Below are positions 435 through 34,204 of a stretch of DNA of 35,477 nucleotides, in pieces. The translations under genes and the position numbers were made by a program. This DNA is from a virus: the UHGV virus genome UHGV-1967114; one strand, given 5' to 3'. Numbering within the stretch: the stretch's first letter is position 1; every line of letters begins with the position of its first letter. Below the pieces are notes generated by a model. The model worked only from the letters and a program-made list of their open reading frames with translations. It was not told the DNA's origin and ran no database searches.

Positions 435-1229
435 TCATTTTTTCTCTACACAAGAATATTTCCATTCGATTTCCTTTCCGGTACGGTTGTCAACATAAAT
501 ATGATGATAGTCCAGTGTTCTTACATCATCAACCATCTTATCACCGGAATATGTTTTTCCGTGTTGTGCGTATAACTCTACACCAGTTTTTGTAGTTTTT
601 GACATGAATCCATCAGCGTCAATATTCATTTCCACTACAACTGGGGGGTGCATCGTTCCAGAAATTAGAAGTTTTGCCTTGTCTTTGTTTTTATCGATTA
701 CAATTTTTGTGTTTTCTTTCACTATATCACGATCTTCTACACTCAGTCCGTCAATTGTGGTTATCTTAACTACTTTCGGACAAATATATACGAAGTTGCT
801 ATTTGGGGACTTTTCCAGAACAACTTGTTTCTCTTTGGTTTTTAGAGTTTCTACTGCCTTCGGTTGTTCTTCTTCAACCTTCGCAGAAGTCTCTGAATCG
901 CTTTCTGACGCGGTTTCTTCTTTAGATAATACATCCATCAAGTTTTGGATTTGAGCGTTGTATACAGCCTCCAGTGGCTGAATCTGCCCGATATTGATCA
1001 TTGTATCACGAACAGTTTTATTCCAGTTGCGTTGCTCTTGTTTAAGCGACGGATCAATCTTAACAGCCTTAACATATACTTCATGAAGTTTAGAGTCCAG
1101 TGCGGAGATTGACTCATTAGCACAAATAAACTTCTCTGATTTGGTAGTAGCTTTAGTGCAATCGAAGGATGCAGCATTAGCACCGAATGCAGTAGCAGAA
1201 AGAACGATAGCAGCGATAATGTTTTTCAT
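435..1229 (-). CDS. Secreted protein with N-terminal LprI/DUF1311-like domain (signal peptide MKNIIAAIVLSATAFGANA) and C-terminal Cys-containing domain; probable moron
   Basis: Signal peptide; motif C-x(n)-EKFIC...LD..L...Y....QR.W...RD typical of DUF1311; RBS AGAGG upstream of ATG on minus strand. Confidence 0.6.
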   Translation of the reverse strand: MKNIIAAIVLSATAFGANAASFDCTKATTKSEKFICANESISALDSKLHEVYVKAVKIDPSLKQEQRNWNKTVRDTMINIGQIQPLEAVYNAQIQNLMDVLSKEETASESDSETSAKVEEEQPKAVETLKTKEKQVVLEKSPNSNFVYICPKVVKITTIDGLSVEDRDIVKENTKIVIDKNKDKAKLLISGTMHPPVVVEMNIDADGFMSKTTKTGVELYAQHGKTYSGDKMVDDVRTLDYHHIYVDNRTGKEIEWKYSCVEKK

Positions 1230-1587
1230 TTTATACCTCTTTTGGTATGGACTGACTTTTAGATGCTTACTTTATTGATTTTTGATATTTTTTCAATTAT
1301 TGGGATGAGATTTAGTAATTAAATTAAGAAATTAATGCTTGACAAATTAAAAAGGTACTGTTCCACGGATGAAATAAAGGGAGTTTTCGGCACCCCGGTA
1401 TTTGATGTGCGTGTGAGATTCTAAAACGTGATCACTTCACTTATGGCGCGGTCGCTACGCGACTATTAACCCACTTCCTAACCCTTACCATTACTGGATC
1501 TTTCCCTTCGTTAGAATGCGATTTAGGCGCTTAGATTGTGCGTAAAACCAATAAATAAAATTACGCAAATTTAATGGAGGATAACCA

Positions 1588-2142
1588 ATGAAAGAAGAAT
1601 TAACCCTTACAGAAATTTCCCGTTTATATGGCTATACATTGAATGGTGGCGGTAAGCGATGGTTAGAAAGGGGATTGCCATTTAACACCAATACCCGCCG
1701 CGTGCCAGCCAAAGAAGGAACAGAATGGGTCTTGAAAAATATTATCAACCCGCTTAAACAAACTTCTATCAAAGAACAAATCGACGTAGAGAAATTACGC
1801 CGTGAACGTGCTTTGGCAGATGCAGCCGAACGAGAGAACCAGGAAAAAATGAATCTCCTGATTCCTGTCGGTTATGTAGAACAGGAACTAGCGGAATACT
1901 GCGGGAAAGTGAAACAGACTATTTTGCAGATTTGTACGATCGATGCCCTAGAAATTTTAGAATCCGCCACTGATCAGAAAACATTGAAGAATAAGCTAAG
2001 GGAGATCATCGAACGTCGTTTAAATGAAGTAGGGGACTTGTTCGAAAATGCAGATTTGGGAGAAGACGAGGAAGAAGAATTAGCATTAATGGATGAACCG
2101 GAACAAGAACCAGAAGAAGACGATGAATTTGATGTGTCTTAA
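1588..2142 (+). CDS. Nu1-like DNA-packaging protein / terminase small subunit candidate (N-terminal HTH, GGGK motif, EKLRRE, acidic C-terminus)
   Basis: Pattern resembles lambda Nu1 N-terminus (HTH...GGGK...EKLRRE); strong RBS GGAGG 9 nt upstream; note it is not adjacent to the large subunit. Confidence 0.5.
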   Translation: MKEELTLTEISRLYGYTLNGGGKRWLERGLPFNTNTRRVPAKEGTEWVLKNIINPLKQTSIKEQIDVEKLRRERALADAAERENQEKMNLLIPVGYVEQELAEYCGKVKQTILQICTIDALEILESATDQKTLKNKLREIIERRLNEVGDLFENADLGEDEEEELALMDEPEQEPEEDDEFDVS

Positions 2143-2242
2143 AAATTAGATACTAAATATATACGTGAAGGATGTTGAGCTGGTCAACGTCTACGGGGGA
2201 GAACATCCCCCGCTAACCTTTTTCTTATTTGAGGATTTACCT

Positions 2243-2344
2243 ATGGTTGAATTTTTGATTTATCTGGCTGTAGGATTAACTATCGTATATTCACTTGCTC
2301 ACATTGGCATTTCTACTGTGTGTAACGCTTTCAAGTATCATTAA
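2243..2344 (+). CDS. Small hydrophobic membrane peptide (33 aa)
   Basis: ATG preceded by GAGGA RBS; single predicted TM helix; below ORF-track size cutoff. Confidence 0.3.
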   Translation: MVEFLIYLAVGLTIVYSLAHIGISTVCNAFKYH

Positions 2345-2397
2345 TTAAATCGATGAATTGAACTATAGATGATGGTCGTTTTCAAAGAGGATTATCT

Positions 2398-2571
2398 ATG
2401 GATCTTTTTGTCTACTTTGCTACTCTGCTGTTTTTGACTATCGTCGCTGGCATTAAATTGATTTTTATATCGCTGGTGGTGTTTTTCAAATTTCTAATCG
2501 GTACGCCTTACGGCTGGGTATGCTTAATCCAGTTTATTCTTTTTAGTTGCTGTAAAAAGGATACTAAATAA
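2398..2571 (+). CDS. Small membrane protein (57 aa, two hydrophobic segments)
   Basis: ATG preceded by AGAGGA RBS; hydrophobic composition. Confidence 0.35.
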   Translation: MDLFVYFATLLFLTIVAGIKLIFISLVVFFKFLIGTPYGWVCLIQFILFSCCKKDTK

Positions 2572-2728
2572 TAGTGTAATCTGCCTTTTCTCCTTATGGT
2601 TATTAACAGGGGATCTTCTTTGAGGATTCCCGATTAAAAGCCATAAAACACACTCCAGTACAGTGTTTTCATAGTCAGTGATCTATACAACACAAAAACA
2701 TAACAAGTATAGATTGAGTATTAATCCT

Positions 2729-2757
2729 CCCGCCCTTCGGGGCGGTTATTTTTCTGG
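2729..2757 (+). terminator. Intrinsic terminator (CCCGCCC-TTCG-GGGCGG + T-run)
   Basis: GC stem with UUCG tetraloop followed by TTATTTTTCT. Confidence 0.6.
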
Positions 2758-2830
2758 CTTTAAAGAATAATGTAGCATTATGTTCATTATAACCTCATCT
2801 TTGTTGTGCAAACCTAACCTAAACTTACTA

Positions 2831-2857
2831 GGGACTCTTCGGAGTCCCTTTTTTATT
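2831..2857 (+). terminator. Intrinsic terminator (GGGACTC-TTCG-GAGTCCC + T6)
   Basis: Perfect 7-bp stem, UUCG loop, TTTTTTATT; overlaps 3' end of minus-strand gene 2853..3794. Confidence 0.6.
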
Positions 2858-3794
2858 GGCAGTAAGAAAAGTTAGTACCGTACATTTCATCATGAAGCAT
2901 TGCAGCATTGCGTTTCTGTTCTTCTTCCTCGTCTACCGCATCACTAGAAAAATGAGATTTGCCCTTAAAAGAACGAAGCAATTGCAGTGCAGCCATCGGA
3001 TCACGCATCACATCGATTTTCACTTCTACTTCATCATTTGCGGCCTCATCAGCCGCATTTTCAACTACTGCCACCGGAGCAACTTCTTTAGCTTTCAGTT
3101 CTTCAATTTCAGCTTTCTGGGCTTCGATAATCTGGTCTTTTTCTTCCAGTGCAGCTTTCAGTTCTGCGATCTGTGCTTCCAGTGCAGCAAAGCGATCTTC
3201 TACAACAGGAGAAACAGCATTAACCTGTGCTTCCAGTTCCAGAAATGCTTCGCAAGATTCAATACGTTCTTTCTCTTCACCTTCATAAGCAACCAGTTCT
3301 ACAACTTCTTTTTCGGTAGCGTGGCTGTTAAAGAATACAGCAAAGTAAGGATTGCCGGATTTAGTGAAGTTCAGTTTAGCTTTTCCGGTAACTTCTTTAC
3401 GACGACCGAAGGTGATCTGGCAATCAGCGGTATCCTGAAAATCCATGTTAGGAGCGGAAACGATAGCAGTATCACCAGCAATAACCAGGTGGAACAGTTC
3501 AGAAGAGTTCTTAACGGTAAAGGTAACGATGTGGTCTACTGCAACGTCTTTAGCTGGTTTAACGCGGTCGATTGCTTTACGAATGCCGTTAGGCAGTTTA
3601 CCGTCAACACCAAAGCCAGCCGCGATCAGTGCTTCACGATGTGCTTTAAAGCCAGCGAAAGCGGATTTCTGCTGCGCAAAGGAAACATGAGCAACAACTT
3701 TCGGCTGAATCTTCTTGTTTGCTTCGGTGCCAAATTTGATAACTGCTTTAGCGTTGGTTACTTCGTTAGTGAAAAAGTTAGCGGAAAATAACAT
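2853..3794 (-). CDS. Hypothetical early protein with central coiled coil (AALEAQIAELKAALEEKDQIIEAQKAEIEELKAKE) and acidic region; function unknown
   Basis: 313-aa ORF with normal amino-acid composition; overlapping plus-strand ORFs are low-complexity and rejected. Confidence 0.6.
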   Translation of the reverse strand: MLFSANFFTNEVTNAKAVIKFGTEANKKIQPKVVAHVSFAQQKSAFAGFKAHREALIAAGFGVDGKLPNGIRKAIDRVKPAKDVAVDHIVTFTVKNSSELFHLVIAGDTAIVSAPNMDFQDTADCQITFGRRKEVTGKAKLNFTKSGNPYFAVFFNSHATEKEVVELVAYEGEEKERIESCEAFLELEAQVNAVSPVVEDRFAALEAQIAELKAALEEKDQIIEAQKAEIEELKAKEVAPVAVVENAADEAANDEVEVKIDVMRDPMAALQLLRSFKGKSHFSSDAVDEEEEQKRNAAMLHDEMYGTNFSYCQ

Positions 3795-3840
3795 TATAAA
3801 TACTCCTGTGGAAAGTTAGTTTTAATTGTTCATCGCAAAA

Positions 3841-3875
3841 GCCTCCTTGTTGCCGCAAGGGGGCTTTTTTATTTT
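3841..3875. terminator. Intrinsic terminator, possibly bidirectional (GCCTCCTTG...CAAGGGGGC + T6, A4 on other side)
   Basis: 9-bp stem with one wobble, 6-nt loop, T-run on plus side and short A-run upstream. Confidence 0.55.
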
Positions 3876-3906
3876 TAAAGCCATCATATAATTCTCAGTC
3901 AAAGTA

Positions 3907-4089
3907 TCAGTAAACCTCTGCGGTTATCTTTACTTTAATGTCATACTTCTTTAAGAGTTTGTGGAAGGTTGATTGATCAATACCTTCACCTTTAAACCAT
4001 TCACCAATCACTACATCAGGCGTCAGTTCAAAATAACGCTTTGCCATTTCTAAAACGATTTCACGAGTGAACTTAACAGGTCGTGCCAT
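3907..4089 (-). CDS. Small putative DNA-binding protein (60 aa), member of a 3-gene paralog family sharing motif F.RE...[FY]..LKKY.IKV
   Basis: Strong RBS AGGAGG 8 nt upstream; shared motif with 7207..7467 and both halves of 7470..8045. Confidence 0.55.
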   Translation of the reverse strand: MARPVKFTREIVLEMAKRYFELTPDVVIGEWFKGEGIDQSTFHKLLKKYDIKVKITAEVY

Positions 4090-4124
4090 CTTGAATCCTC
4101 CTAAATCTGGATTAATTATTTCTT

Positions 4125-4147
4125 AAAAAAAAGAGCGTTAACCGCTC
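4125..4147 (-). terminator. Possible leader terminator/attenuator upstream of 3907..4089 (minus strand GAGCG-GTTAA-CGCTC + T8)
   Basis: Short 5-bp stem but followed by 8 consecutive T on minus strand, located between candidate promoter and the gene RBS. Confidence 0.3.
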
Positions 4148-4606
4148 ATTGTTATTTATACGGGGATTGTTTTTTAATTTTTCAACCCCTCACATTTATC
4201 TCTTATATATGTATTTATAACAGAGATATGTTAAAATGTTATTCAGATGTTATCAGGCGTGTTAAATGTGTTAAACCACAGCACGAATTGCTAAAGCGAA
4301 GAACGCGATTTAACCAAATTGATGTATATTTAATCAATTTAGAAAAATGCATAGCACTTTTTGCTAAAGCGGTGAGTATTAATTGAGCTATGAATTGTAA
4401 AGATTTGTTACAGGATTTTCTCTCAGATCCAAACCTTAACAGACATATAACAATTTAACAGGATAATAACAATAGGAAGGAAAATCGGTAAATTTTTACT
4501 TTCAATACAAATATTATAACATATTTATCTCGAATTGTCAATTATACCACTGTTCCTACACAGTGTCAACAAAGGACTTTCAAACCTACACTAGCCCTAC
4601 ACTATG

Positions 4607-4785
4607 AAAATTGCCCCTGAACCAAAATCCCCTAGATTTCACATCCCATTTTTGCCCCTGAAACCCACTATTTTTGCCCCTGAAATTCTGGGAAACAGTG
4701 ATTTTGCCCCTCATTTTTGCCCCTGAAATGCCAATAATTGCCCCTGAAAATCTAATTTTTGCCCCTGAAATTTGCCCCCGAAAAG
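4607..4785 (+). repeat. Array of 8 direct repeats, consensus TTTTTGCCCCTGAAA, spacing 13-41 bp, in a 1.37-kb non-coding region; candidate iterons / protein-binding array
   Basis: Copies at about 4611, 4652, 4674, 4704(variant CTCA), 4717, 4738, 4759, 4772(variant CCCCCGA), all same orientation. Confidence 0.8.
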
Positions 4786-5926: not shown

Positions 5927-5948
5927 GTTAGGTCAACCCTTTGGTGTC

Positions 5949-7127: not shown

Positions 7128-7135
7128 TAATTTTT

Positions 7136-7164
7136 GCCCCTGAATTTCAGGGGCTTTTTGTTTT
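7136..7164 (+). terminator. Intrinsic terminator built from one copy of the TTTTTGCCCCTGAA motif paired with its inverted partner (GCCCCTG-AATTT-CAGGGGC + T-run)
   Basis: 7-bp GC stem, 5-nt loop, TTTTTGTTTT immediately downstream of stop at 7127. Confidence 0.65.
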
Positions 7165-7467: not shown

Positions 7468-7469
7468 CT

Positions 7470-8185: not shown

Positions 8186-10099
8186 ATGAAACTGATTTCT
8201 AATAAGGCCAAATTAAAAAAGATTCTCAGAAATGCAGCCAAATATATTACGCCACCGCCTAAACTCCTTCCTTCTGAATGGTGCGAAGCGAATCTAACGC
8301 TAGTCGATGGTCCTCGTGCTGGGGATAAAGTTAAATTACTGTCATTTCAGAAAGGCATGATTGATGCTCCTTTCCTTGAGAAGAAAAAGAAGTACGTTTT
8401 TTGTACGAGTGCGCAGATCGGAAAGACGACCATCATGTCAGGGATCATGTTTAACCAGATGGCAAACGATCCGTGCAATATCATTATCGGGCAAAGTACC
8501 GCTAAAGAAGTGGCTATGTACTTGAATACTAAGATCCGTCCTTCTATTGAAGCATGTCCGGCATTACAGGAAGTGGTAACAGATAAGAATGATCGTAATG
8601 CGGTAAACAACAATAACCAGATTCAGCTAAAAACAAACCATTTCCTTTACATGGTTTCTTTGACCAGTCCTTCAAGTTTGCGTGGGCGTACTGCCAAGTT
8701 AGGGATTGTAGACGAATGCGACGCAGCAACAATCACCGAAGAAGGTTGTCCGGTGGCACTAACTGCAAACCGTTTAACTACCTTTGGTGATGAAGCTCGA
8801 TTGATTGTTTCTAGTACCCCAACCAATAAGCTGGGAATCATTAACCAGCAATGGTTATCAAGTGATATGCGTATGTTTTTTGTTCCGTGTCCTCATTGCG
8901 GGGAACACCAGGTGATCGAGTGGGAAAACGTTCAATTTGAATGGCGTAACATCGATGGTAAGAACTTACCCGATCCTGATACCGCTCGTTATATTTGCCC
9001 CCACTGTAAGCAATCATGGACAGAAGGGGAACGAATCAGGGCAGTAGCGCAAGGCGAGTGGAGAGCAACCCGTGAAAGTGAAGTAGCAGGATTCTGGATC
9101 AGCCGTCTGTATTCACCTTTCAGTAGTATCCGCGCTTGTGTGGTTGATTTTAGTCATGCGTGGCAATCCTTTGATTTACAATCATTTTATAACACAGTGT
9201 TAGGTAAGGTATACGACGATCAGGACACGGCAGTAGAAGCAAATGAACTGGAACAACTCAAAACAGATGTTTCTATCGAGAATATCCCTGATGACGTGAT
9301 TTTCTTGTGTGCGGGTACTGACCAGCAATTAGATCGCGCAGAAACTACGATCATGGGCGTGGCAAAGGATAAGATTTATATTCTGGATCATCGCAGCTTT
9401 TACGACCATAACTGTGAACGATATGAATCTCCTGTATGGGACAGATTAATCAACTTCCATAAAACCAAATTTACTACTGTATCGGGTGATCGTGTTCCTA
9501 TGCTCGCCAGCTTCCTTGATACATCGAACGGTCGATTCACTCAAGCCGGATACCGTATTTGCGGTGGTAAGTGGAAGAACTTACACGCAATCAAAGGTAG
9601 TTCATCTGGTACTGCTCCAATCATTCCGGTGAAACCAACTACCACGGGTGGTCATGAATTGCTTATGTTGGGCGTTAACGTGGGTAAAACGGCTATTCGT
9701 GAGCTATTAACACGCAACTTGAAAGAAAACCCTCATATTGGTTTAGAGATATCAGAAACCGTTCCTGATGATTATCTCGATCAGCTTTTGAGTGAATCCA
9801 TCAAGCGTACTGTTACTGGAACACGTTGGGTAAAAAATCCAGGTGCGACACGAAACGAGGCGCTCGACTGTCTGGTTTATAGCTATGCGGCTTCTCGCTA
9901 TGTTCTTTCAAAAATGTCATGGGATAAGCTCATTGCAATGAAAGAAAAGCTGAATCGTGAACCAGAAGCAACCGTAGAAGCTCCTAAATCACATTCTAAC
10001 GAGCAAATCGAAGAAACTAAGCCAATCACTCATCACAAACCTAATCGTCGTCCTATGGCGCGTCCTGTGCGTCGTGGTGGGTGGGTAAATAACTTTTAA
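8186..10099 (+). CDS. Terminase large subunit (lambda gpA-like ATPase/nuclease)
   Basis: 637 aa; Walker A-like SAQIGKTT and Walker B LGIVDECD; CPHCGEH...CPHCKQ motif; position upstream of portal. Confidence 0.85.
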
Positions 10100-14254: not shown

Positions 14255-14362
14255 CCTTCCCCCGATTTGGGGGAAGAAAATCTGATTCCTGAACCGGAAG
14301 AAGAATCCCAGACGGTTAAGGCGAAAGCCACAGCTAAAAAACAGCGTAAAACTAAAGAATAA
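14255..14362 (+). other. Pro/Glu-rich + Lys-rich coding module (PSPDLGEENLIPEPEEESQTVKAKATAKKQRKTKE) in the same frame as the capsid gene but separated from it by TGA and TAA; homologous to the extension after the tail tube gene
   Basis: Frame and 15-nt identical core GGCGAAAGCCACAGC shared with 20176..20301; synonymous differences preserve K/R residues. Confidence 0.4.
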
Positions 14363-14367
14363 TAATT

Positions 14368-14397
14368 AGCCCTGCCGTTATTGGCGGGGCTTTTTTG
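14368..14397 (+). terminator. Intrinsic terminator (AGCCCTGCC-GTTATT-GGCGGGGC + T6)
   Basis: Strong GC stem and T-run; near-identical copy at 20307..20336. Confidence 0.75.
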
Positions 14398-16041: not shown

Positions 16042-19000
16042 ATGCAATCAATCCAATTTAAACGCACACAAACGGCTGGTAAAAAACCAACGCCGGAACA
16101 ATTACAGGTCGGTGAAATCGCTATTCAGATGGCAGACCATGTAATTTACACCAAAGACAAAAATAACGCAGTAGTTCAAATCAGCGTTTCCCCAGAAAGT
16201 CATAATGCTTTAAACACGAAAGTAGACAATAACAAAACTAGCACTGACCGTGTTATTGCTTCCAACAAACAAGAGGCCGCTAATAATCTGGCTAGTGCTA
16301 AAGCTGAACTGAATCAGACTATTACCACGAAAGATACAGCGACCAATAAGCGCATTGATGCTACCAACACCACTGTTAGTAACTTAACCCAGACAGTTAC
16401 GGCAAATAAAACCGATGCCGACACTAAGATCAATAACCTTACGGGGACCGTATCTGCGAATAAGACCGCAATTGAAAGAACCGTTGCCGCAAACAAATCT
16501 GATGCAGATAGCAAACATGCAGCTTTAACGAAAACGGTCACTGACAATAACACCGCGATTAACAACAAGGTTAATACCACTAACACCAACGTTAGCAACT
16601 TAACTAAAACTGTTACTGCAAATAAAACCGATGCAGATAACAAAATTTCTAGCTTAACTAGCACGGTTGCAGCTAACAAGACAGCGATCGAAAAGACTGT
16701 TTCCGACAATAAGAAAGACGCGGATACTAAGATTACCAATCTTACTGGCACTGTTAATAGCAACCATACCGCAATTAACAACAAGGTAGACCAGAATAAA
16801 TCTTCTACTGATGCCGCAATTGCAGCCGCTAACAAACGAATTGATGGTATTGAAGGTAGCAATGATGCTCTTTACATCAAGAAGAATACCAATACTAAGC
16901 ATGGTGGGTATCTGTTAAGCAAGACAGCTAACTATCTGGAAGACCAGACATCACGAGATCTTAACTACTTTGGTGCTTTCCGTACCAATGGTCAAGATGG
17001 ACTCATGGATCTAACTCTTAACGTTCCTCACTCTTCCGGTAAAGCGCACGGTCGCGGATTTACTTTCCGTTATGCATCTGGTGGATCTCGTGTTGAAACC
17101 TATGGTTTTGATAGAGAAGGACAGAAGAACTTTAGCTATAAGATGTATCACGAAGGTGATAAGCCGACTCCTGGCGAGATTGGTGCATACACCAAAGCCG
17201 AAGTTGATAAGATGTTTGTTAAAAACGTCGTTATGTCTGTTCCCAATTCTAGCGAAAACGTATCTGCATATTTCAAATTGGCAACCGCAACAATTCCACA
17301 AAACGGGCGTAGTGTGTTTTTCCGTATTCATGGTGGTAATGGTTACAACGTTACGGCATATGATCAGGTTGACGTAGTAGAAATTCTTCTGCGTAGTGGT
17401 AACGATAGACCTAAAGGTCTTAACGTAATTGCATACCGTAGAAATACAAACAAAGATTTTGAGGTATTTGCTGTCAATACTTCCGGTGATAACTATGATA
17501 TCTACGTGAAATATCAGCGTTATACCGATAACGTTATTGTCGAATATGGGAAATCTGTTTATGTAAGTTTGACGGTTTATGATACGCCGGAAGCCACGTT
17601 AATTAAACCTTCCGTTGGTGTTATCGGTGGTCGCAACGTAACTCTTTTTAATACTGAAAATAAACGTGGTGTGTTAAGTTTTGATGATAACACACAAAAC
17701 AGCTATGACATTGTTCATCTAAGTAATGATAAAGGTACTGGACGGAAATATATTCGTAAATTCCGTAGCAACTATAACGAAATGGTTTGGCATGAAACCG
17801 TTCAGGGTGCTGTATATCGTCTTGCTACTGGTGCTACAGATTCTACAGAAGTTATTAGAATTGATTCTAATAGTGCAATACCGGGTAATTATAAAGGATA
17901 TGTAATTACTGGTAAAATGGAATTGCACGGTAGTGGTAATGCGATGACTTTACATCGACAGACTGGTCAAGCTGCATATATGGCGTGGTGGGATCGTCGT
18001 GATGGTAAAAACCAACGTAGTGGTTATATCGGTCATGCGGATGGTACTAGTGATGGTTTTGTGTGGCGTAATGATGTTGGTGCTAACTCATTTGATTTGG
18101 AAGGTAGTGGACAAGTAAATTTGACTACAGGAAAAACAAAAATTGTATATACCAATGGTCAATATTATTCCGCTAACGCTGATGCATTCCGTATGATTTA
18201 CGGTAAGTATGGTGCATTCTGGCGAAATGATGGTGGTAAAGTTTATCTGTTGTCTACTGCCGAAAATGATAGATTTGGTGGTTGGAATACATATCGACCT
18301 TTTATCTACGATCTTACTTCCGGTAACGTTCAATTAGGTGGTGATGGAAACGAAGATGTATTAACTCTAGAACGCGCAAGCAAGGCCGCTCGATTCTCTG
18401 GCAACGCTTACATCAAAGGTCAACATTTAACATTTGATGCTGGTGCTGGACAATCCCGCGATTACTTCCGGTTTAACCATTGGGGCGATAGTAATAACGC
18501 TCGCGATAACATCCTACAGATTGAAGACAGTCAGGGTGCACACTTTACCACTGAACGCGCTATGGGTACTGGCAATATCACAGCACGTTTTAAAGGCTTC
18601 GTGCGTGTAGAATCCGGTGAGATTGCCTTTGATGCTAATCGTGGATCTGCGTCTCAATTTACCTTACATACATGGGGTAACGAGCAACGCAAACAGGTTT
18701 TTGAATGTAAGGATGCTACTAGTTATCATTGGTATACCGAACGTACAAACGGTGGAACTGGTCCTATCCTGTTCTCTGTTGCTGGTACATTAAAAACTGC
18801 GAGCAATATACAGGTTGGCGGTGCTGATATTGAGTTTCGTCGCAGTGGTAATAAGCATTTATGGTTTAGAGATCCGAACGGTTTAGAATTAGGTTTGATG
18901 TACTGCGATGATGCTGGTGTTATCCGCTTCCGTGGTCAGAAACAAGGTCAAACTTGGAAACTTGCTGATAAAATGATTCATCTTGAGGCGGGGACTGTCG

Positions 19001-20175: not shown

Positions 20176-20301
20176 ACTAACGAAGAACTTCCTTTACCAG
20201 AACCGGAACCACTGCCGGAACATGAAGCGGTGGTGATTCCAGAAGTAGAAGAAGTTACGGCGAAAGCCACAGCAAAACGAGGCCGCAAGGCTAAGAATTA
20301 A
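20176..20301 (+). other. 41-codon in-frame extension directly after the tail tube UGA stop (TNEELPLPEPEPLPEHEAVVIPEVEEVTAKATAKRGRKAKN); candidate readthrough product
   Basis: Same frame as 19702..20175 with a single intervening TGA; homologous to 14255..14362. Confidence 0.45.
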
Positions 20302-20306
20302 TTTTA

Positions 20307-20336
20307 AGCCCTGCCTTAATGGTGGGGCTTTTTTAT
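20307..20336 (+). terminator. Intrinsic terminator (AGCCCTGCC-TTAAT-GGTGGGGCT + T6)
   Basis: Paralogous copy of terminator at 14368..14397. Confidence 0.75.
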
Positions 20337-28700: not shown

Positions 28701-29506
28701 AGAACGGGACCGATGTTTGCCCGTTTGGTATCGAAGGTAACAAGGTTTATCTCGATAATGCGATGATTCGTAATGCTGCAATTGGCACAGCCCAGATTAA
28801 TGATGCGGCGATTACTACCGCTAAGATCGGAAATGCTGCAATTAACAGCGCGAAGATTCAGGACGGGGCAATCACTAACGCCAAGATCGTAAACGGTGCA
28901 ATTGATAACGCCAAAATTGGTAACTATATCCAGTCTTCCAACTGGAACGGATCTACCGGATGGCATATCAACAAGAACGGGTCCGCTACGTTCATGAATG
29001 CTACCGTTAAAGGTAATATCACGGCTGATTCTGGTACTCTGAACAACGTCACGATTAACTCTAGCTGTGTTATTAAGGGTATGCTTGAAGCTACTCAGGT
29101 TAAGGGTGATTTCGTTAAGGTGATTGGTAAGAAATTCCCTCATCGTCAACAAAACTGGCCTGATGGCACTGTTACGGTAAGGGTGGAAGATGATCATAAG
29201 TTTGATCGCCAAATTGTGATTCCAGCTATTCACCATAACGGGTCTGTTCGTCGTGGCGAAAGTAGTGATCATTGGGACACTTGCCGATTAATCGTTAAGA
29301 AAAATGGCTCTGTTCTATATGATCGCACGGCTACTTCTGGCAGCATGTACACAGGCGTTATTGACATGCCAGCGGGTAAAGGTGCTGTAACGTTAACATT
29401 CCAAGTTATTTGTGATGGTGTTAACAACTATAACCCAAGTGCATATATCAGCGATCTAACAGTAATGGTAACTAAAAAAGCCACTACTGGTATTACTGTT
29501 TCTTAA
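25760..29506 (+). CDS. Central tail fiber / host specificity protein (lambda gpJ-like) with hydrophobic Gly/Ala-rich N-terminal segment
   Basis: C-terminal ~150 aa (..SGTLNNVTINSSCVIKGMLEA..FPHRQQNWPDGTVTVRVEDDHKFDRQIV...VIDMPAGKGAVTLTF...MVTKKATTGITVS) closely resembles my recollection of lambda J receptor-binding end. Confidence 0.85.
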   Translation: MGFEILVGAVIAGASAGMAAAATFSVMTAVAIGMAAGAMTLIASTVGAPKTPKVQSPDNAVTLGTSNDPKAVIPVVFGTTRTGTNCVYKAVSKQENNKLVQIFSVAEGEIDHYKALFIDNKNVLVGKNMTIRDGILDKGNIKEEYRKVLEVEFRTGKNPNTALSLAKRHLGSDWTDAFKGNGIATMCIVLRRDDKSLAAGVDILQPNSQVAVDVCGLKIRNLETNAIEASTNGVDQIFHYLTNEKYGLSVPIENINVDSFLKVRKQVRQMDLHSNGACDPNASFKENLTSLMQTFGGVMFESFGRITLKLDAPDIVKHTFNEDNIMMGKVSLKTGGTNGYFNTINAMYQEPSIDYSEQMLRYPADAENDATVRADGRIIAKDVEYRFVKSKDQIDKLASIERNKSRITQVISFMTTDAFTAEVWDVISVTYDELKLNNSLWRITAIDRSIDSGIAGMMTITATEYNSQVYTDLNYAATPDNRPSGLPDSMTVQKPTNFRIKATGETIYGKNVTLTWDAPEDFNRYGFQIDYRVSGSPNWIKLGQTSQQIFSVNALAKDRSYDYRVCAFGIIARSDWVELINQNPTVTYELPTPVIRIKNQGSTPGTFEGNDLIIEWENQQQLDVEINGETNKFSDLFEAYIIKVTNKAGKSIQYRTRDPESWTYTLDMNQFNGLSRQLTVEVSAKGYNNSESAPARLVAINPQHKPMKGFSARGGFNTAFVSWADDVEHDYAGSIIQYATDNTFSDARAVSTNSVSHTSFDIADGDYYIRGAHYDIFGMDDAVWSEPYFMSMKSTISWDDQDKEALEDLIGLQDRLDETIADAIAQAGANADAKIDAMHKQITTETGQTVQASADTLKSLITSGDQASATKIDQVKAELKGDITKEVSASATTLKQAIATSEAASASKIDQVRVEMDGKIAGVNQEADVKIDALKGTINSKYNLAVNADGRVAGIHMSATNDPAQPTKIIFTADKIAVAPQNGTDVCPFGIEGNKVYLDNAMIRNAAIGTAQINDAAITTAKIGNAAINSAKIQDGAITNAKIVNGAIDNAKIGNYIQSSNWNGSTGWHINKNGSATFMNATVKGNITADSGTLNNVTINSSCVIKGMLEATQVKGDFVKVIGKKFPHRQQNWPDGTVTVRVEDDHKFDRQIVIPAIHHNGSVRRGESSDHWDTCRLIVKKNGSVLYDRTATSGSMYTGVIDMPAGKGAVTLTFQVICDGVNNYNPSAYISDLTVMVTKKATTGITVS

Positions 29507-29524
29507 AATTTAATTTTAATAATA

Positions 29525-29566: not shown

Positions 29567-29611
29567 CTAAATAATTTTGCCATTAAACTATATAAAAATA
29601 TCGGGGGCGTA

Positions 29612-29890
29612 ATGACTGAAATTATATATGGCGGTATCGGTGTTATCGCCTTAATTTGTGGTGGTCTTTGGAGACTTCACCGAAATCAATTAGCAACTGA
29701 AAATAGGTTATCTAAATTGGAATCCAGCGACGCATTGTTAAACCAGAAGTTTGAGACGATGCAGAATAACCATACTCAGATTGCTGAACGTGTTTACCAA
29801 ATGGAACAAACACTACACGGTATAGAGAAGAAAGTGGTTGCGATGGACGCCAAATTTGACCAAGTTCTCGACATACTCAAACAAAAATAA
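29612..29890 (+). CDS. Membrane protein with N-terminal TM helix and coiled-coil tail; holin- or spanin-like lysis protein candidate
   Basis: IIYGGIGVIALICGGLW hydrophobic segment then charged helical region; RBS GGGGGCG; position at start of lysis region. Confidence 0.4.
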   Translation: MTEIIYGGIGVIALICGGLWRLHRNQLATENRLSKLESSDALLNQKFETMQNNHTQIAERVYQMEQTLHGIEKKVVAMDAKFDQVLDILKQK

Positions 29891-29908
29891 TAATAAAGGG
29901 GTGAATAT

Positions 29909-30079
29909 ATGAAGAATAAACTTAAGAAATATTTTGGTTATCTCTTGATTGTCGCCCTCACTTATAACGTAGCTATTAGACCTCTGCTAACGTCCTTTGG
30001 GCTTGAACTCCCGGCTATGACCGTGGATGAACAATTGCTAAGGACACTGGCGGGGGTCTTTTCGTTATTAGGGGGCTAA
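29909..30079 (+). CDS. Small single-TM protein (56 aa); holin/antiholin candidate
   Basis: RBS AAAGGGGTGA; hydrophobic core YLLIVALTYNVAI; below ORF-track cutoff. Confidence 0.3.
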   Translation: MKNKLKKYFGYLLIVALTYNVAIRPLLTSFGLELPAMTVDEQLLRTLAGVFSLLGG

Positions 30080-30080
30080 C

Positions 30081-30764
30081 ATGGCAACCAGTACCAATAA
30101 ACGAAACGCTCTAAGGACTAAGAAAGCGTTACGCCAATGGACTGATAAAGCAACCGATACATTCGAAAAGGCGATAGGGGAAGGGGCGATCTTTGCTTCC
30201 AGAGCACTCCAGAAGAAGATTAACAAGAATGTTGATAGACCTACTCGATGGACTCAGCAAGCTGTAGGTAATACCAACTACAAGAACCGATCAGGGACGA
30301 GACACCAAATCTTCATCAAGGGCGCAAGGGATAAGGACAAGAAGATCGGTAGTCAGGACGACTATCTGAAACACTATTTCGATGGTGGCAAAATCAATAA
30401 GCTAGTGCCAATCGCTAACGGTAAGGTCTTAGACGCCCACGGGAACATTAAGGCCATCAAAGGCGGTAAGATGATGCGTAACATCGAAAACGGCAACTTC
30501 ATCAAGGTAGAGAACAAGGAAGGGACTTTTATCATGAAGAAGTACAAGCCTAAGAAATCCCGAACCAAACGCGCTAAGAATGGATCGGCGGTGGCAAAAC
30601 GTCGCTTAGAGAAACGCATCCAGAAACAGAGTAAGCGAATTGTTGCCGTTAAGTCGGATAAAATTTCTACTCGTTATTCGACGCTAGGATCGTGGGAAAG
30701 CAATGAAGCAATGATGCTTGAAAACATCAATAAGCACATTAAATCGCGCATGAAATACGTTTAA
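30081..30764 (+). CDS. Hypothetical highly basic protein (Lys/Arg-rich)
   Basis: 227-aa ORF with RBS; basic composition. Confidence 0.55.
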   Translation: MATSTNKRNALRTKKALRQWTDKATDTFEKAIGEGAIFASRALQKKINKNVDRPTRWTQQAVGNTNYKNRSGTRHQIFIKGARDKDKKIGSQDDYLKHYFDGGKINKLVPIANGKVLDAHGNIKAIKGGKMMRNIENGNFIKVENKEGTFIMKKYKPKKSRTKRAKNGSAVAKRRLEKRIQKQSKRIVAVKSDKISTRYSTLGSWESNEAMMLENINKHIKSRMKYV

Positions 30765-30802
30765 TCAATAAATACCCTCATAGAATCCTATGGAGGTATA
30801 AC

Positions 30803-31150
30803 ATGGCTAAAAATATTTTCACTGAATTTCCTACTTATCCGGTCGATCAGCTTTCCGGTATTTTTATTAATGGCATTAGCCCAGAATCAATGACCTATGA
30901 TTTTGAGGCGAAGAGAGTTAAACATAAACAATATAAAGAATGTATCCGCGATCATGAAAAAGGGACCGTGTTTTGTGTCGCTACATTGGCTAAACGTCCT
31001 AAGTATCGTTTTCGTGTCGGGCAAGAAGTCGATGTAGTTAATCCTTATAGCTTTAACTGTCTGGGTGATGCACGCGCGGTGTGTGTAGGCACTGCTCCTT
31101 ATTATATCAAGGGTATGCGCTTTATTGGTTATATCTTCGAAATGATCTAA
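30803..31150 (+). CDS. Hypothetical protein
   Basis: 115-aa ORF with RBS GGAGG. Confidence 0.55.
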   Translation: MAKNIFTEFPTYPVDQLSGIFINGISPESMTYDFEAKRVKHKQYKECIRDHEKGTVFCVATLAKRPKYRFRVGQEVDVVNPYSFNCLGDARAVCVGTAPYYIKGMRFIGYIFEMI

Positions 31151-31159
31151 GGGGGTAAT

Positions 31160-31513
31160 ATGTTAAGTAAGCATTTTTCTCGCAAGGAATTTAAATGTAG
31201 ATGCGGAAAATGTGATTATGATACTATCGATGCTGAATTACTGGTAATTCTTGAGGATGTACGAGAACACTTCGGGAAACCAGTTATTATTAACAGTGGC
31301 AACCGTTGCCCGACTCATAACAAGAATGTAGGCGGGGCAGCCAATAGCTATCACGTTCGAGGCCGCGCGGCTGACATTGTTATCAAGGGTGTCTCACCTG
31401 ATATTGTTCATGCTTATCTTGATGGGAAATATCCTACTCAATACGGCTTAGGAAAATATAAAACATTTACGCATATCGATTCCAGATCGAAAAAATCACG
31501 ATGGAATGGATAA
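31160..31513 (+). CDS. Peptidase M15 family (Peptidase_M15_3-like) cell-wall hydrolase; endolysin candidate
   Basis: Motif SGNRCPTHNKNVGGAANSYHVRGRAADIV ... FTHID matches zinc-binding H/D/H signature of M15 peptidases (recollection). Confidence 0.65.
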   Translation: MLSKHFSRKEFKCRCGKCDYDTIDAELLVILEDVREHFGKPVIINSGNRCPTHNKNVGGAANSYHVRGRAADIVIKGVSPDIVHAYLDGKYPTQYGLGKYKTFTHIDSRSKKSRWNG

Positions 31514-31518
31514 AATTA

Positions 31519-31545
31519 AAGCGCCTCTAGTGGGCGCTTTTTTGT
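31519..31545 (+). terminator. Intrinsic terminator ending the late operon (AAGCGCC-TCTAGTG-GGCGCTT + T6)
   Basis: GC stem and TTTTTTG immediately after stop of 31160..31513. Confidence 0.7.
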
Positions 31546-31710
31546 TAGAATATGCTGGCGACGTTAGCTATATTTCTGACCATTTTTTCATTATAGACAA
31601 ATATACCGCAGACGATAAAGTCGTTTTTGACGAAGCCGTCTCTGGTTGAAGTAATGAAAGAACCGGAAGACCTAGAGCTTGATTTAAGCCCATTAGAGAC
31701 TCTCTAACGC

Positions 31711-31741
31711 AATTAAATTAAAAAGGGGTACGAATTACCCC
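31711..31741 (-). terminator. Intrinsic terminator for minus-strand recombinase-side operon (GGGGTA-CGAAT-TACCCC with T-run on minus strand)
   Basis: Hairpin preceded on plus strand by AATTAAATTAAAAA; located downstream of minus-strand stop at 31780. Confidence 0.5.
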
Positions 31742-31779
31742 TTAAAGCGTTTGGTTCGTTATACGGCGATTTAGGCCGC

Positions 31780-32052
31780 CTATGATTTATTTTCTTGTTC
31801 TATGAAAATCTTTCTCACCTCATCAGAATAAATGTCTAGTGATTCCTCATAACATTTTCTGTATTCACCGTAATTACTGGTGGTCTTTTGACATAGCAAT
31901 TTCAATGTTTTATGTGCTCCATCAATGAAAGCATCTTCTCTATAGGTTAGCGGTCTACGCATTTCTTGGTCTACGGTTGCCAATGCCAGGCAAGAATTCA
32001 TAGATAAAATCAAACCTAAAATCTTAATCATCTTCATTAGCTTAAATTCCAA
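31780..32052 (-). CDS. Small secreted protein (signal peptide MKMIKILGLILSMNSCLALA), Cys-containing
   Basis: Hydrophobic N-terminus with ALA cleavage-like site; overlaps 3' end of recombinase gene. Confidence 0.5.
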   Translation of the reverse strand: MEFKLMKMIKILGLILSMNSCLALATVDQEMRRPLTYREDAFIDGAHKTLKLLCQKTTSNYGEYRKCYEESLDIYSDEVRKIFIEQENKS

Positions 32053-33721
32053 ATTCCTGTAATGGACCTGGTATTTCTTCTTCTGGTTTCCAGTTCTTAT
32101 CTGTCAGCATGTCTAAACATGGATGCAGAACAAGCCCGTTACTCTCCAGAATCTGCCTATCATTGATAGTCTTCAAATCAATGAAGATCCGGCCTTTCCT
32201 CGGTCCTCTTGAATTTTCTATTACAACTCTCTGGGTCTTGCCATCGATGTATTCCAATACAAACAAGTTTTTGTACTTGTCAATCCTGCTACACCCGATC
32301 CGTTTTAGAGCTTGCTTAATCTTAAACCGGACCTTAATGCGATCCTCGTTGTAAACATCTTCTAAATCAAATTCTGCGAGCTTCTCCCAGCCTTGAGAGT
32401 CAACAGAATACATTTCCTCTTCTGCCATCTTAATTTGATTGTAGAGTGTTTCACGCTCGCTATTGAGGGTAGTAATCTGATCGGCTAGCTCCTTCGTTGC
32501 TCCTGTCATAGCAGAAAGGGTAATCAGGTTATCAATCTTGCGTGATATTTCATCAATCTGTACTTTCAAAGCCGGAACCGGATTAGCCTTATCTTCAGCA
32601 ATCCAGATTTTATCAGCCAGCAATTGCAATACAGCTTTCTCTAATTGGTCGCCGCGAAAACTCCAGTTTGTATGCACACATTCAATACGACTAGAGCGCA
32701 TTGCATCGCATGAATAACGATATTGGTTAGGCCGTCTGTTTGTTCCTTTCACCTTAACCATAGCGGAACCGCAATGTTCACATTTCAATAGACCAACACC
32801 ACTAAGCAAGGGAATAGGTTTAACTTCTTCTTTGTCTCCAAAGTTACATGCTCTAACACCAATGCTTTTCTTAAGGTGATAAAACTCAGCGTCATCTAGC
32901 ACACGAGGATAATAATCCTTTAACTCATACTTAACGCCATCTACAGAGATTTCCTTGATACCAATCAAAGCGCGGGTATGGAACAACCTTTCAATCATTG
33001 CCCGTGACCAGTTTGAATGCCTCTTGTGACTTGCGGCTGGTGGTGGTGTGTATGTCGCGTTAAGGTGATCCAGTATCTCGGCGGTTGACCGTCCATTCCT
33101 GCGTAATTCCACAACTTCCTGAACAATAGGGAAGAAGACCGGATGAGGAAGCACATAACCAGATGTGGTATCAGTCCACCACATATTCTTTCCAATTTCC
33201 TCGATTGCAACAGCCGGATTTTGTGGATTTTCTTGATGAGCTTTAATCTTAATCAGTGCGCTTGAGTTAGTACGATTGCGCTTAGTCTGGCTTTCCTCAT
33301 TACCACGGATGAATAAAAGGATGGAGAACATCAGGTCCATCGGGTTAGCGGTAACAGTATCCAGCGAGTAGATCTTGTTATCCATGCCAGTAACAATGGT
33401 TATCCCCCTACGGATGATTGAAAGGAATAACTCCTGCGCACTGACAATATCGGCACGGGATAAACGGTCCAAGTTTTCGATGAATAGCCAGCTACCAACA
33501 GGAACGGATCTACCTATTGCATCAAGGAAACGAGATAGCGCCCCTGTTTTGGAGTTAGCACCCTTAAACGCAGATACACCCAGATCCTGATAATCATTTA
33601 CCAGTTCAAGGTCATACTTTACCGCAATCTCTCTAGCCATCCTGATTTGTCGTTCATAACTCGAACCATCATTCTGACGCATAGACGAGAAGCGAATATA
33701 CGAATACAGTTTAGTTTTCAT
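32042..33721 (-). CDS. Large serine recombinase (probable prophage integrase); start taken at ATG 33721
   Basis: N-terminal resolvase-type motif YIRFSSMRQ (catalytic Ser), central recombinase region, zinc-ribbon CEHCGSAMVKV...YRYSCD...IECVH; 559 aa. Confidence 0.85.
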   Translation of the reverse strand: MKTKLYSYIRFSSMRQNDGSSYERQIRMAREIAVKYDLELVNDYQDLGVSAFKGANSKTGALSRFLDAIGRSVPVGSWLFIENLDRLSRADIVSAQELFLSIIRRGITIVTGMDNKIYSLDTVTANPMDLMFSILLFIRGNEESQTKRNRTNSSALIKIKAHQENPQNPAVAIEEIGKNMWWTDTTSGYVLPHPVFFPIVQEVVELRRNGRSTAEILDHLNATYTPPPAASHKRHSNWSRAMIERLFHTRALIGIKEISVDGVKYELKDYYPRVLDDAEFYHLKKSIGVRACNFGDKEEVKPIPLLSGVGLLKCEHCGSAMVKVKGTNRRPNQYRYSCDAMRSSRIECVHTNWSFRGDQLEKAVLQLLADKIWIAEDKANPVPALKVQIDEISRKIDNLITLSAMTGATKELADQITTLNSERETLYNQIKMAEEEMYSVDSQGWEKLAEFDLEDVYNEDRIKVRFKIKQALKRIGCSRIDKYKNLFVLEYIDGKTQRVVIENSRGPRKGRIFIDLKTINDRQILESNGLVLHPCLDMLTDKNWKPEEEIPGPLQEFGI

Positions 33722-33730
33722 ACCATTTCC

Positions 33731-33770
33731 AAACAAAAACGCCCCTACCGCGTATTATAACGATAGGGGC
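33731..33770 (-). terminator. Terminator-like hairpin between secreted-protein gene and recombinase gene (minus strand)
   Basis: GCCCCTA...TAGGGGC stem with 16-nt loop, followed on minus strand by GTTTTTGTTT. Confidence 0.45.
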
Positions 33771-33784
33771 TAGGTGATTAAAGA

Positions 33785-34204
33785 TTAAAGAATTTCACGG
33801 CAGCTAATCAGGGTATAAGATGTATCACCTTTTTTAACATCAAATATAGGAGCGCCATCTACAGAATGCAGATATTTGATGTAAGACTTACCATCTTCGG
33901 AACCATAATATTCTTCTTTCTCGTTCTTATCTTCTTTCAGTTTCGGGCTTTTGATTGTTTTATCAAATACCGGATCGTTGAAAGCAAATTGACTATTATC
34001 ATCATTCACTCGAACCTTTACACCGATAAAACCACGGTATTTGCCAGACGGCGCATGATAATAACGGTCGCCATCACTCAGGTAGCGTGTATCATCTCCT
34101 TTATATTCGAAGTAGGAATTGCACACATAATAGGTATAGGTATTAGCATTTGCAGCACCAACCAAACCCAGAGCAAGAACGATACCAGCGATAATCTTTT
34201 TCAT
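33785..34204 (-). CDS. Secreted protein (signal peptide ...LVGAANA), two Cys; possibly related to C-terminal domain of 435..1229
   Basis: Signal peptide; Y-V-C near N-terminus and I-S-C near C-terminus as in the 264-aa protein (FVYIC...KYSC). Confidence 0.6.
   Translation of the reverse strand: MKKIIAGIVLALGLVGAANANTYTYYVCNSYFEYKGDDTRYLSDGDRYYHAPSGKYRGFIGVKVRVNDDNSQFAFNDPVFDKTIKSPKLKEDKNEKEEYYGSEDGKSYIKYLHSVDGAPIFDVKKGDTSYTLISCREIL

What the first reader, a model, noticed from the sequence alone, without database searches (positions are those of the whole stretch)
435..34204. Secreted proteins at both ends of the prophage, apparently sharing a two-Cys domain
The 264-aa protein at the left end has a signal peptide, a DUF1311/LprI-like domain and a C-terminal domain with Cys in FVYIC...KYSC context. 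The 139-aa secreted protein at the right end shows a similar Cys arrangement (YYVC...LISC). A third small secreted protein lies at 31780..32052. These look like periplasmic morons, possibly lysozyme inhibitors or superinfection-exclusion factors.
Basis: partly seen in the sequence, partly recalled or inferred. Interest (0 to 1): 0.45.

Follow-up and report, generated by a model that had tools for sequence, protein, structure and literature searches.

The report
Secreted phage barrel proteins near attP
An E. coli prophage carries three small exported accessory genes next to its integration site; two are predicted disulfide-closed beta-barrels of the fold class that includes bacterial lysozyme inhibitors, but they are not detectably related in sequence, and what they do has not been tested.

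Summary
The window is a ~35 kb E. coli prophage inserted in the antitoxin gene hicB by a large serine integrase.

The "shared two-Cys domain" is not supported as homology. BLASTP aligns only the signal peptides. Profile-profile probability is 0.1-0.2%.

New points:
- P264 belongs to a phage family with a 97%-conserved N-module (signal peptide, DUF1311, acidic linker) and swapped C-terminal domains (32% identity). The N-module is 96-97% identical in DNA to virulent T4-like Krischvirus phages.
- P139 is a rare Enterobacteriaceae family. In this window and in two Salmonella prophages it lies about 60 bp upstream of the serine integrase; terminator-like hairpins flank it here and one follows it in Salmonella.
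- The two "ends" are one contiguous low-GC block across attP.

The most likely function, inferred only, is periplasmic inhibition or binding acting in superinfection exclusion or immunity.

The parts
1..238 (+). 5' fragment of the host antitoxin gene hicB, ending at the left prophage junction (attL, 238|239)
   Evidence: RefSeq annotation of the 99.7%-identical strain PI7. The sequence reads ...RRIG then phage-derived NPNVVNPK*.
284..306 (-). Terminator-like hairpin downstream of P264
   Evidence: 9-bp stem, 5 GC pairs, T-run.
435..1229 (-). P264. Signal peptide aa 1-19; LprI/DUF1311 helical module aa ~24-105; acidic linker aa ~106-143; predicted beta-barrel aa ~145-262 with C150 and C260
   Evidence: phrog_14799 matched full length at E 1e-109. 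PGAP name is 'lysozyme inhibitor LprI family protein'.
859..1229 (-). N-module of P264, shared at 96-97% nucleotide identity with virulent Krischvirus phages (RB49, JSE and others). Identity begins near the start codon and ends inside the acidic linker.
438..800 (-). Type-B C-terminal barrel cassette of P264. Found in 6 of 5426 complete E. coli genomes; 48.6% identical to phage JSE.
1269..1296 (-). Sigma-70-like promoter match upstream of P264 (consensus match only)
   Evidence: TTGAAA-16-TAAAGT, 9 of 12. The number of such matches in the region is not above the shuffle expectation.
31723..31743 (-). Terminator-like hairpin after P85. It is conserved downstream of the integrase in related prophages.
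31780..32037 (-). P85, a small ORF with a weaker signal-like N-terminus and two Cys in a helix-looking mature part. It occupies a variable slot between the integrase stop and the terminator.
   Evidence: No Pfam, PHROG or NCBIfam hit.
32042..33721 (-). Large serine recombinase (integrase)
   Evidence: Pfam Resolvase, Recombinase and Zn_ribbon_recom. PGAP coordinates.
33741..33770 (-). Strong terminator-like hairpin between P139 and the integrase. It is conserved in the Salmonella relative.
   Evidence: 11-bp stem, 7 GC pairs. The same hairpin is at L007 6422-6447.
33785..34204 (-). P139. Signal peptide aa 1-20; predicted beta-barrel with C28 and C135; invariant D-K-x-I-x-S-P-K-L-K segment at aa 81-90
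34482..34502 (-). Terminator-like hairpin upstream of P139, after the 145-aa gene
34516..35225 (-). Two cytoplasmic-looking phage genes (145 aa and 90 aa) between P139 and attR. Context only.
   Evidence: phrog_14908 and phrog_6147, both of unknown function.
35270..35381 (+). 3' fragment of hicB after the right junction (attR, 35269|35270)

Best explanation
P264, P139 and probably P85 are independently acquired accessory genes (morons). They sit in one contiguous block around attP of a serine-integrase prophage, and integration into hicB splits that block to the two prophage ends.

Shown or directly predicted:
- P264 and P139 have Sec-type signal peptides with A-x-A sites and no lipobox.
- Each carries a predicted eight-stranded up-and-down beta-barrel with an invariant or nearly invariant Cys in the first and in the last strand. 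This is the position of the beta1-beta8 disulfide in MliC/PliC/ACP.
- The two barrels are not detectably homologous.
- P264 is a two-module protein. A nearly invariant DUF1311/LprI helical module plus acidic linker is joined to a replaceable barrel cassette. The constant module moves between virulent T4-like Krischvirus phages and temperate prophages.
- P139 belongs to a small Enterobacteriaceae family. In this window and in the two Salmonella prophages examined it sits just upstream of the serine integrase. It has diverged much faster than that integrase.

Inferred:
- After export and DsbA-dependent oxidation, the proteins act in the periplasm as binding or inhibitor proteins.
- The most likely targets are cell-wall hydrolases or envelope-penetration proteins that arrive from outside: tail-tip lysozymes of superinfecting phages, or T6SS muramidase-type effectors.
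- On this reading the DUF1311 module supplies a conserved activity and the barrel a fast-switching specificity.
For: - Context and junctions.
- Signal-peptide pattern and low pLDDT of residues 1-20.
- LprI hit above the Pfam cut-off.
- AF2 models. P139 has pLDDT 91-97 over the mature part. The P264 barrel has pLDDT 69-87 (per 10-residue block), all beta.
- The beta1-beta8 disulfide is a conserved feature of that fold (PMC5507604).
- Constant and variable architecture. The N-module has 97% mean pairwise identity and the C-domain 32%. Nucleotide breakpoints lie at the start codon and at about +370.
- Both cassette types occur in lytic and in temperate phages.
- Moron features: flanking terminators and low GC.
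- P139-integrase synteny holds in Salmonella, with the intervening hairpin conserved. P139 is 44% identical there and the integrase 73%.
- DUF1311 proteins are T6SS immunity proteins. This is experimental for Etsi4 against the cell-wall effector Etse4 (PMC12981562) and predicted elsewhere (PMC9796082, PMC12135965).
- M. tuberculosis LprI is DUF1311 followed by an MliC barrel (PMC7933661).
Against: - No function was tested.
- The MliC/PliC motifs and the Pfam model are absent.
- DUF1311 alone does not imply lysozyme inhibition. ScwA showed none.
- The P264 model is only moderately confident (mean pLDDT 64, 7-sequence alignment).
- The number of promoter matches is not above chance.
- Expression in the lysogen is unknown.
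- No PADLOC defence model matches significantly.
Confidence: 0.5

Rival explanations
1. The two barrels are true but very old homologues. On this view a single ancestral phage two-Cys barrel was duplicated or recombined and has diverged beyond sequence recognition.
Against: hhalign probabilities are 0.14-0.6% with richer profiles. No bridging sequences turned up among 1.84 billion representatives. Disulfide-closed eight-stranded barrels are common among exported proteins, so convergence or independent capture is the simpler reading. Signal peptides resemble one another for compositional reasons.
Confidence: 0.15
2. The proteins are receptor-masking or entry-blocking superinfection-exclusion factors. 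They would bind a host outer-membrane or periplasmic component rather than inhibit an enzyme, in the manner of T5 Llp or Cor.
For: They are exported and lie next to the lysogeny module. The P264 family occurs in both virulent phages (which need exclusion early in infection) and prophages. Rapid cassette turnover and the fast divergence of P139 relative to the integrase suggest an arms race.
Against: There is no lipobox, and the known receptor-masking factors Llp and Cor are lipoproteins (general knowledge; the lipobox test is). No sequence or profile relationship to any characterised exclusion protein was found. T4 Spackle against P264 gives E 1.7.
Confidence: 0.2
3. The proteins are host-benefit lysogenic-conversion factors. 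They would protect the bacterium from animal lysozymes or other host factors in the gut, acting as true MliC/PliC/LprI-type lysozyme inhibitors.
For: The LprI-like domain order and the MliC/PliC/ACP-class fold. The carrier strains come from pig and human gut.
Against: Nearly the same protein is carried by strictly virulent T4-like phages, which gain nothing from long-term host protection. The lysozyme-contact motifs are missing. The proteins are soluble and periplasmic rather than lipid-anchored.
Confidence: 0.1
4. The resemblance is incidental and at least P85 is not a functional secreted protein. On this view P85 is a chance or remnant ORF in a variable slot.
For: PGAP leaves P85 unannotated. 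Its hydrophobic core is interrupted by polar residues and failed my filter. It has no family hits and no obvious Shine-Dalgarno sequence.
Against: The ORF starts 5 nt after the integrase stop and is followed by the conserved terminator. It is kept intact in 17 complete genomes, and the exact protein is found on 790 contigs.
Confidence: 0.05

Closest known systems
Krischvirus proteins RB49p262 (NP_891833.1) and JSE EpJSE_00265 (YP_002922337.1); PHROG families phrog_14799 and phrog_4675 (function unknown)
   Same: The signal peptide, DUF1311 module and acidic linker are 96-97% identical in DNA. JSE also shares the barrel cassette (48.6% aa identity). P264 matches phrog_14799 end to end.
   Different: RB49 and most relatives carry an unrelated-in-sequence C-terminal two-Cys cassette (type A). 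The flanking DNA and the upstream region are not shared. The Krischvirus copies lie among small unannotated genes near gene 52 of a virulent genome, not in a lysogeny block.
Mycobacterium tuberculosis LprI (Rv1541c): DUF1311/LprI domain plus MliC domain, a lysozyme inhibitor
   Same: The domain order: an exported protein with an N-terminal DUF1311 helical module followed by an eight-stranded barrel of the MliC fold class (PMC7933661).
   Different: LprI is a lipoprotein, whereas P264 has no lipobox. The P264 barrel has no PF09864 hit and lacks SxSGAxY and YxxxTKG. Lysozyme inhibition was not tested.
MliC/PliC and Neisseria ACP periplasmic or membrane lysozyme inhibitors
DUF1311 T6SS immunity proteins (for example EHEC Etsi4 against the cell-wall effector Etse4; predicted orphan immunity genes in Pantoea)
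   Same: Exported DUF1311 proteins that neutralise periplasm-acting cell-wall toxins (PMC12981562, PMC9796082, PMC12135965).
   Different: P264 has no adjacent effector gene. It is phage-borne and has an extra barrel. I did not compare the sequences directly, because the Etsi4 sequence was not at hand.
Phage T4 Spackle (Sp, gene 61.3)
   Same: A small signal-peptide-bearing periplasmic protein of a T4-type phage that blocks the tail-tip lysozyme gp5 of superinfecting phage (general knowledge). It is the functional precedent for the inferred role.
   Different: There is no sequence similarity and Spackle is a small helical protein. The genomic position differs: in T4, sp lies between genes 41 and 61; the Klebsiella phage Marfa DUF1311 gene lies between 61 and 56; the RB49 gene lies near 52.
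Salmonella ScwA (periplasmic LprI-domain protein)
   Same: A soluble periplasmic DUF1311 protein with DsbA-dependent disulfides.
   Different: In ScwA the DUF1311 domain is C-terminal and the protein is all-helical. It regulates lytic transglycosylase levels and has no lysozyme-resistance phenotype (PMC7933661).

Membership tests
Pfam PF07007 LprI/DUF1311 (P264 N-module) | Score above the Pfam gathering threshold | tested here: met
   25.6 bits against a cut-off of 22, E 1.7e-5. aa 24-76 match model positions 1-71 of 106, so coverage is partial.
Pfam PF07007 LprI/DUF1311 (P264 N-module) | Helical fold with conserved cysteines | tested here: met
   AF2 helices at 30-37, 39-58, 62-79 and 83-105. 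C24 and C36 are invariant in 22 family members.
MliC/PliC lysozyme inhibitors (PF09864): P264 C-domain and P139 | Eight-stranded antiparallel beta-barrel | tested here: met
MliC/PliC lysozyme inhibitors (PF09864): P264 C-domain and P139 | Disulfide linking the first and last strands | tested here: inconclusive
   C150 lies in strand 145-159 and C260 in strand 253-262. C28 lies in strand 23-35 and C135 in strand 128-137.
MliC/PliC lysozyme inhibitors (PF09864): P264 C-domain and P139 | Sequence motifs SxSGAxY (loop 4) and YxxxTKG (strand 6) | tested here: not met
   No match, including relaxed patterns. The motifs are defined in PMC5507604.
MliC/PliC lysozyme inhibitors (PF09864): P264 C-domain and P139 | Match to the family HMM | tested here: not met
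   No PF09864 hit at E <= 0.1 for either protein. No relative among PDB sequences.
MliC/PliC lysozyme inhibitors (PF09864): P264 C-domain and P139 | Inhibition of c-type lysozyme | not testable with these tools
   Needs a biochemical assay.
M. tuberculosis LprI-type architecture | Lipoprotein signal (lipobox with Cys at +1) | tested here: not met
   No [LVI][ASTVI][GAS]C in the first 40 residues of P264, P139 or P85. A-x-A signal peptidase I sites are present instead.
   BLASTP aligns only residues 1-21. hhalign probabilities are 0.18% and 0.14%. The HMMER profile search found no linking sequences.
Phage moron | Own transcription signals: a terminator after the gene and a promoter before it | tested here: inconclusive
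   Terminator-like hairpins follow all three genes and also precede P139. Their number is 9 against 2.8 expected and 13 against 3.4 expected. Promoter matches are not above the shuffle expectation.
Phage moron | Present or absent, or replaced, among otherwise related phages; atypical composition | tested here: met
   The type-B cassette is in 6 of 5426 genomes. The P85 slot holds other genes elsewhere. GC is 34-38% against 41.4%.
T4 Spackle family | Sequence similarity to T4 Sp | tested here: not met
   BLASTP E 1.7 against P264. P139 was not compared.

The most novel reading that the evidence does not exclude
The DUF1311-linker-barrel gene would be a cassette-switching periplasmic counter-weapon that circulates between virulent T4-like phages and temperate prophages. 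A constant module would neutralise or dock onto an incoming peptidoglycan hydrolase (a phage tail-tip lysozyme or a T6SS muramidase). Interchangeable disulfide-closed barrels would set which competitor is excluded. P139 would be a second, independent barrel of the same functional class, travelling with a serine-integrase module. Together they would form a multi-specificity exclusion block at attP.
Probability: 0.2. Interest if true: 0.65.

Novelty: new variant of a known kind. Interest (0 to 1): 0.4.

Why it matters
- Exported phage accessory proteins are a main route by which prophages change the cell envelope and decide which other phages or competitors can attack a strain.
- This locus offers a clean natural experiment. 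One near-identical N-module is joined to at least two barrel cassettes unrelated in sequence, with several subtypes. It occurs in both virulent and temperate E. coli phages.
- If the barrels set specificity, swapping them should re-target exclusion or immunity. That would be directly testable and is relevant to phage-therapy host-range failures with Krischvirus-type phages.
- If no phenotype is found, the result is still useful. It would show that the database name "lysozyme inhibitor LprI family protein" for these phage proteins is unsupported.

Tried and rejected
- **Homology between the two Cys domains.** BLASTP, hhalign with shallow and richer profiles, and a HMMER profile search of 1.84 billion representatives were all negative. 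The one 1752-aa hit is a Bacteroidetes SprB-repeat protein and looks spurious.
- **First search with the P264 C-domain alone.** The word-indexed protein database returned nothing. Relatives appeared only with the full-length query and by tblastn.
- **MliC/PliC membership.** Rejected on the HMM and on the motifs.
- **PDB sequence relatives.** None.
- **PADLOC, NCBIfam and PHROG function calls.** None informative. PDC-M63A at E 0.005 and DUF4352 at E 0.08 for P139 are below any threshold.
- **Positional equivalence with T4 spackle.** Considered after seeing the phage Marfa gene next to primase, then rejected. T4 sp lies on the other side of gene 61.
- **Whether Krischviruses lack spackle.** The tblastn summary truncates the organism list, so this is inconclusive.
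- **AFDB Foldseek.** The library was unavailable.
- **P139 in the phage genome collection.** No match.
- **BFVD.** Only weak matches to uncharacterised phage lipoproteins.
- **P85 as a recombination directionality factor.** Considered and thought unlikely because of its signal-like N-terminus. Not tested.

Full report
**Context**

The window matches E. coli chromosomes at 99.7-100% identity (strain PI7 and others). RefSeq annotation of PI7 shows a tailed prophage flanked by two fragments of the antitoxin gene hicB, between hicA/yncJ and ydcR. Reading the junctions directly puts the hicB 5' part at window 1-238 and the 3' part from 35270 onward, with an AA core. The prophage is therefore about 239-35269. 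Its integrase is a large serine recombinase at 32042-33721(-), with Pfam Resolvase, Recombinase and Zn_ribbon_recom.

On the minus strand the gene order is P264, terminator, attL ... attR, 90-aa gene, 145-aa gene, terminator, P139, terminator, integrase, P85, terminator. When the phage circularises, this is one uninterrupted block spanning attP.

**Checking the observation**

All three ORFs exist.

- **P264** begins MKNIIAAIVLSATAFGANA|AS and **P139** begins MKKIIAGIVLALGLVGAANA|NT. Both have a basic n-region, an uncharged hydrophobic core and an A-x-A site. Among annotated-size ORFs, they are the only two my simple scan flagged. AF2 gives pLDDT below 50 for residues 1-20 of each. No lipobox is present. 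No dedicated predictor was available, so export is a strong prediction rather than a result.
- **The LprI/DUF1311 hit** in P264 is above Pfam's threshold: 25.6 bits against 22, over aa 24-76.
- **P85** more likely starts at the ATG at 32037. Its hydrophobic segment is weaker. PGAP does not call it, but other annotations do, and the exact sequence occurs on 790 contigs.

**Is there a shared domain?**

By sequence, no. BLASTP aligns only the signal peptides. Profile-profile comparison of the P264 C-domain family with the P139 family gives probability 0.18%, and 0.14% with larger profiles built from database homologues. A HMMER profile of the P139 family read against 1.84 billion representatives found nine proteins. 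None had a DUF1311 fusion or a bridging sequence.

My verdict is same fold class and same disulfide logic, with no evidence of common descent. I could not superpose the two models directly.

**What P264 is**

The first 370 nt of the gene are 96-97% identical to a gene of RB49-like Krischvirus phages, which are virulent T4 relatives. These 370 nt encode the signal peptide, the DUF1311 module and the acidic linker. RB49p262 has the same N-part followed by a different C-terminal region that also has a Cys near each end. Phage JSE has the same C-domain type as the window, at 48.6% identity. Other hicB prophages carry the RB49 type.

Across 21 database relatives, the mature N-module averages 97% pairwise identity and the C-domain 32%, with a minimum of 9%. 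Nucleotide identity starts near the start codon when compared with Krischvirus. It drops to background at about +370, inside the linker, in every comparison except JSE. The window's cassette occurs in only 6 of 5426 complete E. coli genomes.

The protein is therefore a constant module joined to exchangeable barrels, traded between lytic and temperate phages. The DUF1311 module itself is found in 115 phage records: Krischvirus, Klebsiella Marfavirus-like phages, Aeromonas T4-like phages and a few temperate phages. Those carry yet other C-terminal parts, each again with two Cys. PHROGs lists the family as phrog_14799 and phrog_4675, function unknown.

**What P139 is**

P139 belongs to a small family restricted to E. 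coli, Shigella and Salmonella. It has an invariant D-K-x-I-x-S-P-K-L-K segment at aa 81-90 and two invariant Cys. No copy is present in the phage genome collection.

In two Salmonella prophages integrated at a different chromosomal site, the homologue again lies about 60 bp upstream of a large serine recombinase. The same GC-rich hairpin sits between them in the one Salmonella locus scanned (L007). Between the window and that Salmonella locus the integrase is 73% identical but the barrel only 44%. The barrel therefore evolves much faster than its neighbour.

In the window, terminator-like hairpins bracket the gene.

**What P85 is**

P85 fills a slot between the integrase stop and a conserved terminator. 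That slot is empty in the Salmonella relative. In other E. coli prophages it holds a GIY-YIG nuclease or other small genes. No family matches. I treat P85 as a probable but unproven small exported protein.

**Mechanism**

Shown or directly predicted:
- export signals;
- barrel folds;
- Cys placement;
- modular exchange;
- moron-like layout;
- low GC (34-38% against 41.4%).

Inferred: Sec export, signal peptidase I cleavage and DsbA oxidation, then action in the periplasm as binding or inhibitor proteins.

Three points favour cell-wall hydrolases, or proteins entering from outside, as the targets:
- DUF1311 proteins serve as immunity against periplasm-acting cell-wall T6SS effectors. This is experimental for Etsi4 (PMC12981562) and predicted for others (PMC9796082, PMC12135965).
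- The barrel fold class includes three independent lysozyme-inhibitor families, and M. tuberculosis LprI combines DUF1311 with such a barrel (PMC7933661).
- A gene kept by both virulent and temperate phages fits superinfection exclusion, for which T4 Spackle is the precedent. The role of Spackle is from general knowledge. There is no sequence similarity.

Three points count against over-reading this:
- The fold is generic.
- ScwA shows that DUF1311 need not affect lysozyme resistance (PMC7933661).
- Nothing here measures expression or activity.

I put about 0.8 on the structural and genomic description and about 0.35 on the inhibitor or exclusion function, which gives 0.5 overall.

**Novelty and score**

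The gene families are already in the databases, and P264 already carries an LprI-family name. Four things are new:
- the two proteins are not homologues but are fold-mates;
- P264 has a constant and variable cassette architecture that is exchanged between lytic and temperate phages;
- P139 is linked to the serine integrase in all three loci examined;
- the whole set forms one attP-spanning block.

This is a new variant of a known kind. It is moderately interesting and readily testable.

Noticed in passing
window 4635-4777 and 7130-7152: Iteron-like array. Five copies of ATTTTTGCCCCTGAAA at 21-22 or 43 nt spacing lie in a gene-poor stretch, and a sixth copy lies 2.4 kb away just after the Rha-family regulator gene. 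It could be a replication origin or a regulator binding array.
   Followed up: no
window 1-238 and 35270-35381: The prophage interrupts the antitoxin gene hicB. This leaves an N-terminal HicB fragment fused to eight phage-derived codons. hicA upstream is intact in strains PD23 and MEI003 but frameshifted in PI7. What this does to control of the HicA toxin is unknown.
   Followed up: partly
window 8186-10099: The terminase large-subunit ORF is intact here (637 aa). The otherwise 99.7-100% identical PI7 prophage is 113 bp longer between window positions 4000 and 31000, and its terminase gene (2027 bp there against 1914 bp here) is flagged frameshifted, which places the extra bases in that gene.
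   Followed up: partly
window 14315-14395 and 20254-20334: An 81-nt segment is repeated at 72% identity. It consists of a Lys/Ala-rich C-terminal coding tail plus a terminator hairpin, and it follows two different structural genes.
   Followed up: no
window 31723-32041; L007 8143-8201: The stretch between the serine-integrase stop codon and a conserved terminator (AAGGGGTA...TACCCCTT) is a cargo slot. It holds P85 here, nothing in the Salmonella relative, and a GIY-YIG nuclease or other small genes in other E. coli prophages.
   Followed up: partly
L010 838-1596 (Klebsiella phage Marfa), L011 829-1548 (Aeromonas phage AS-sw), L012 847-1545 (Escherichia phage ev099): Other phages join the same signal peptide and DUF1311 module (38-42% identity) to quite different, helix-looking C-terminal regions that again contain two Cys. 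In the lambda-like phage ev099 the gene lies near the excisionase.
   Followed up: partly
window 16447-16787 and 28760-28879: There are tandem, imperfect coding repeats inside the 1200-aa tail-fibre-domain protein (38-nt unit at 54-87 nt spacing) and inside the 1248-aa tail-tip protein (30-nt period).
   Followed up: no
window 33785-34204 versus 32042-33721: Between this prophage and a Salmonella relative, the barrel protein P139 is 44% identical while the adjacent integrase is 73% identical. This suggests diversifying or relaxed selection on the exported protein.
   Followed up: partly
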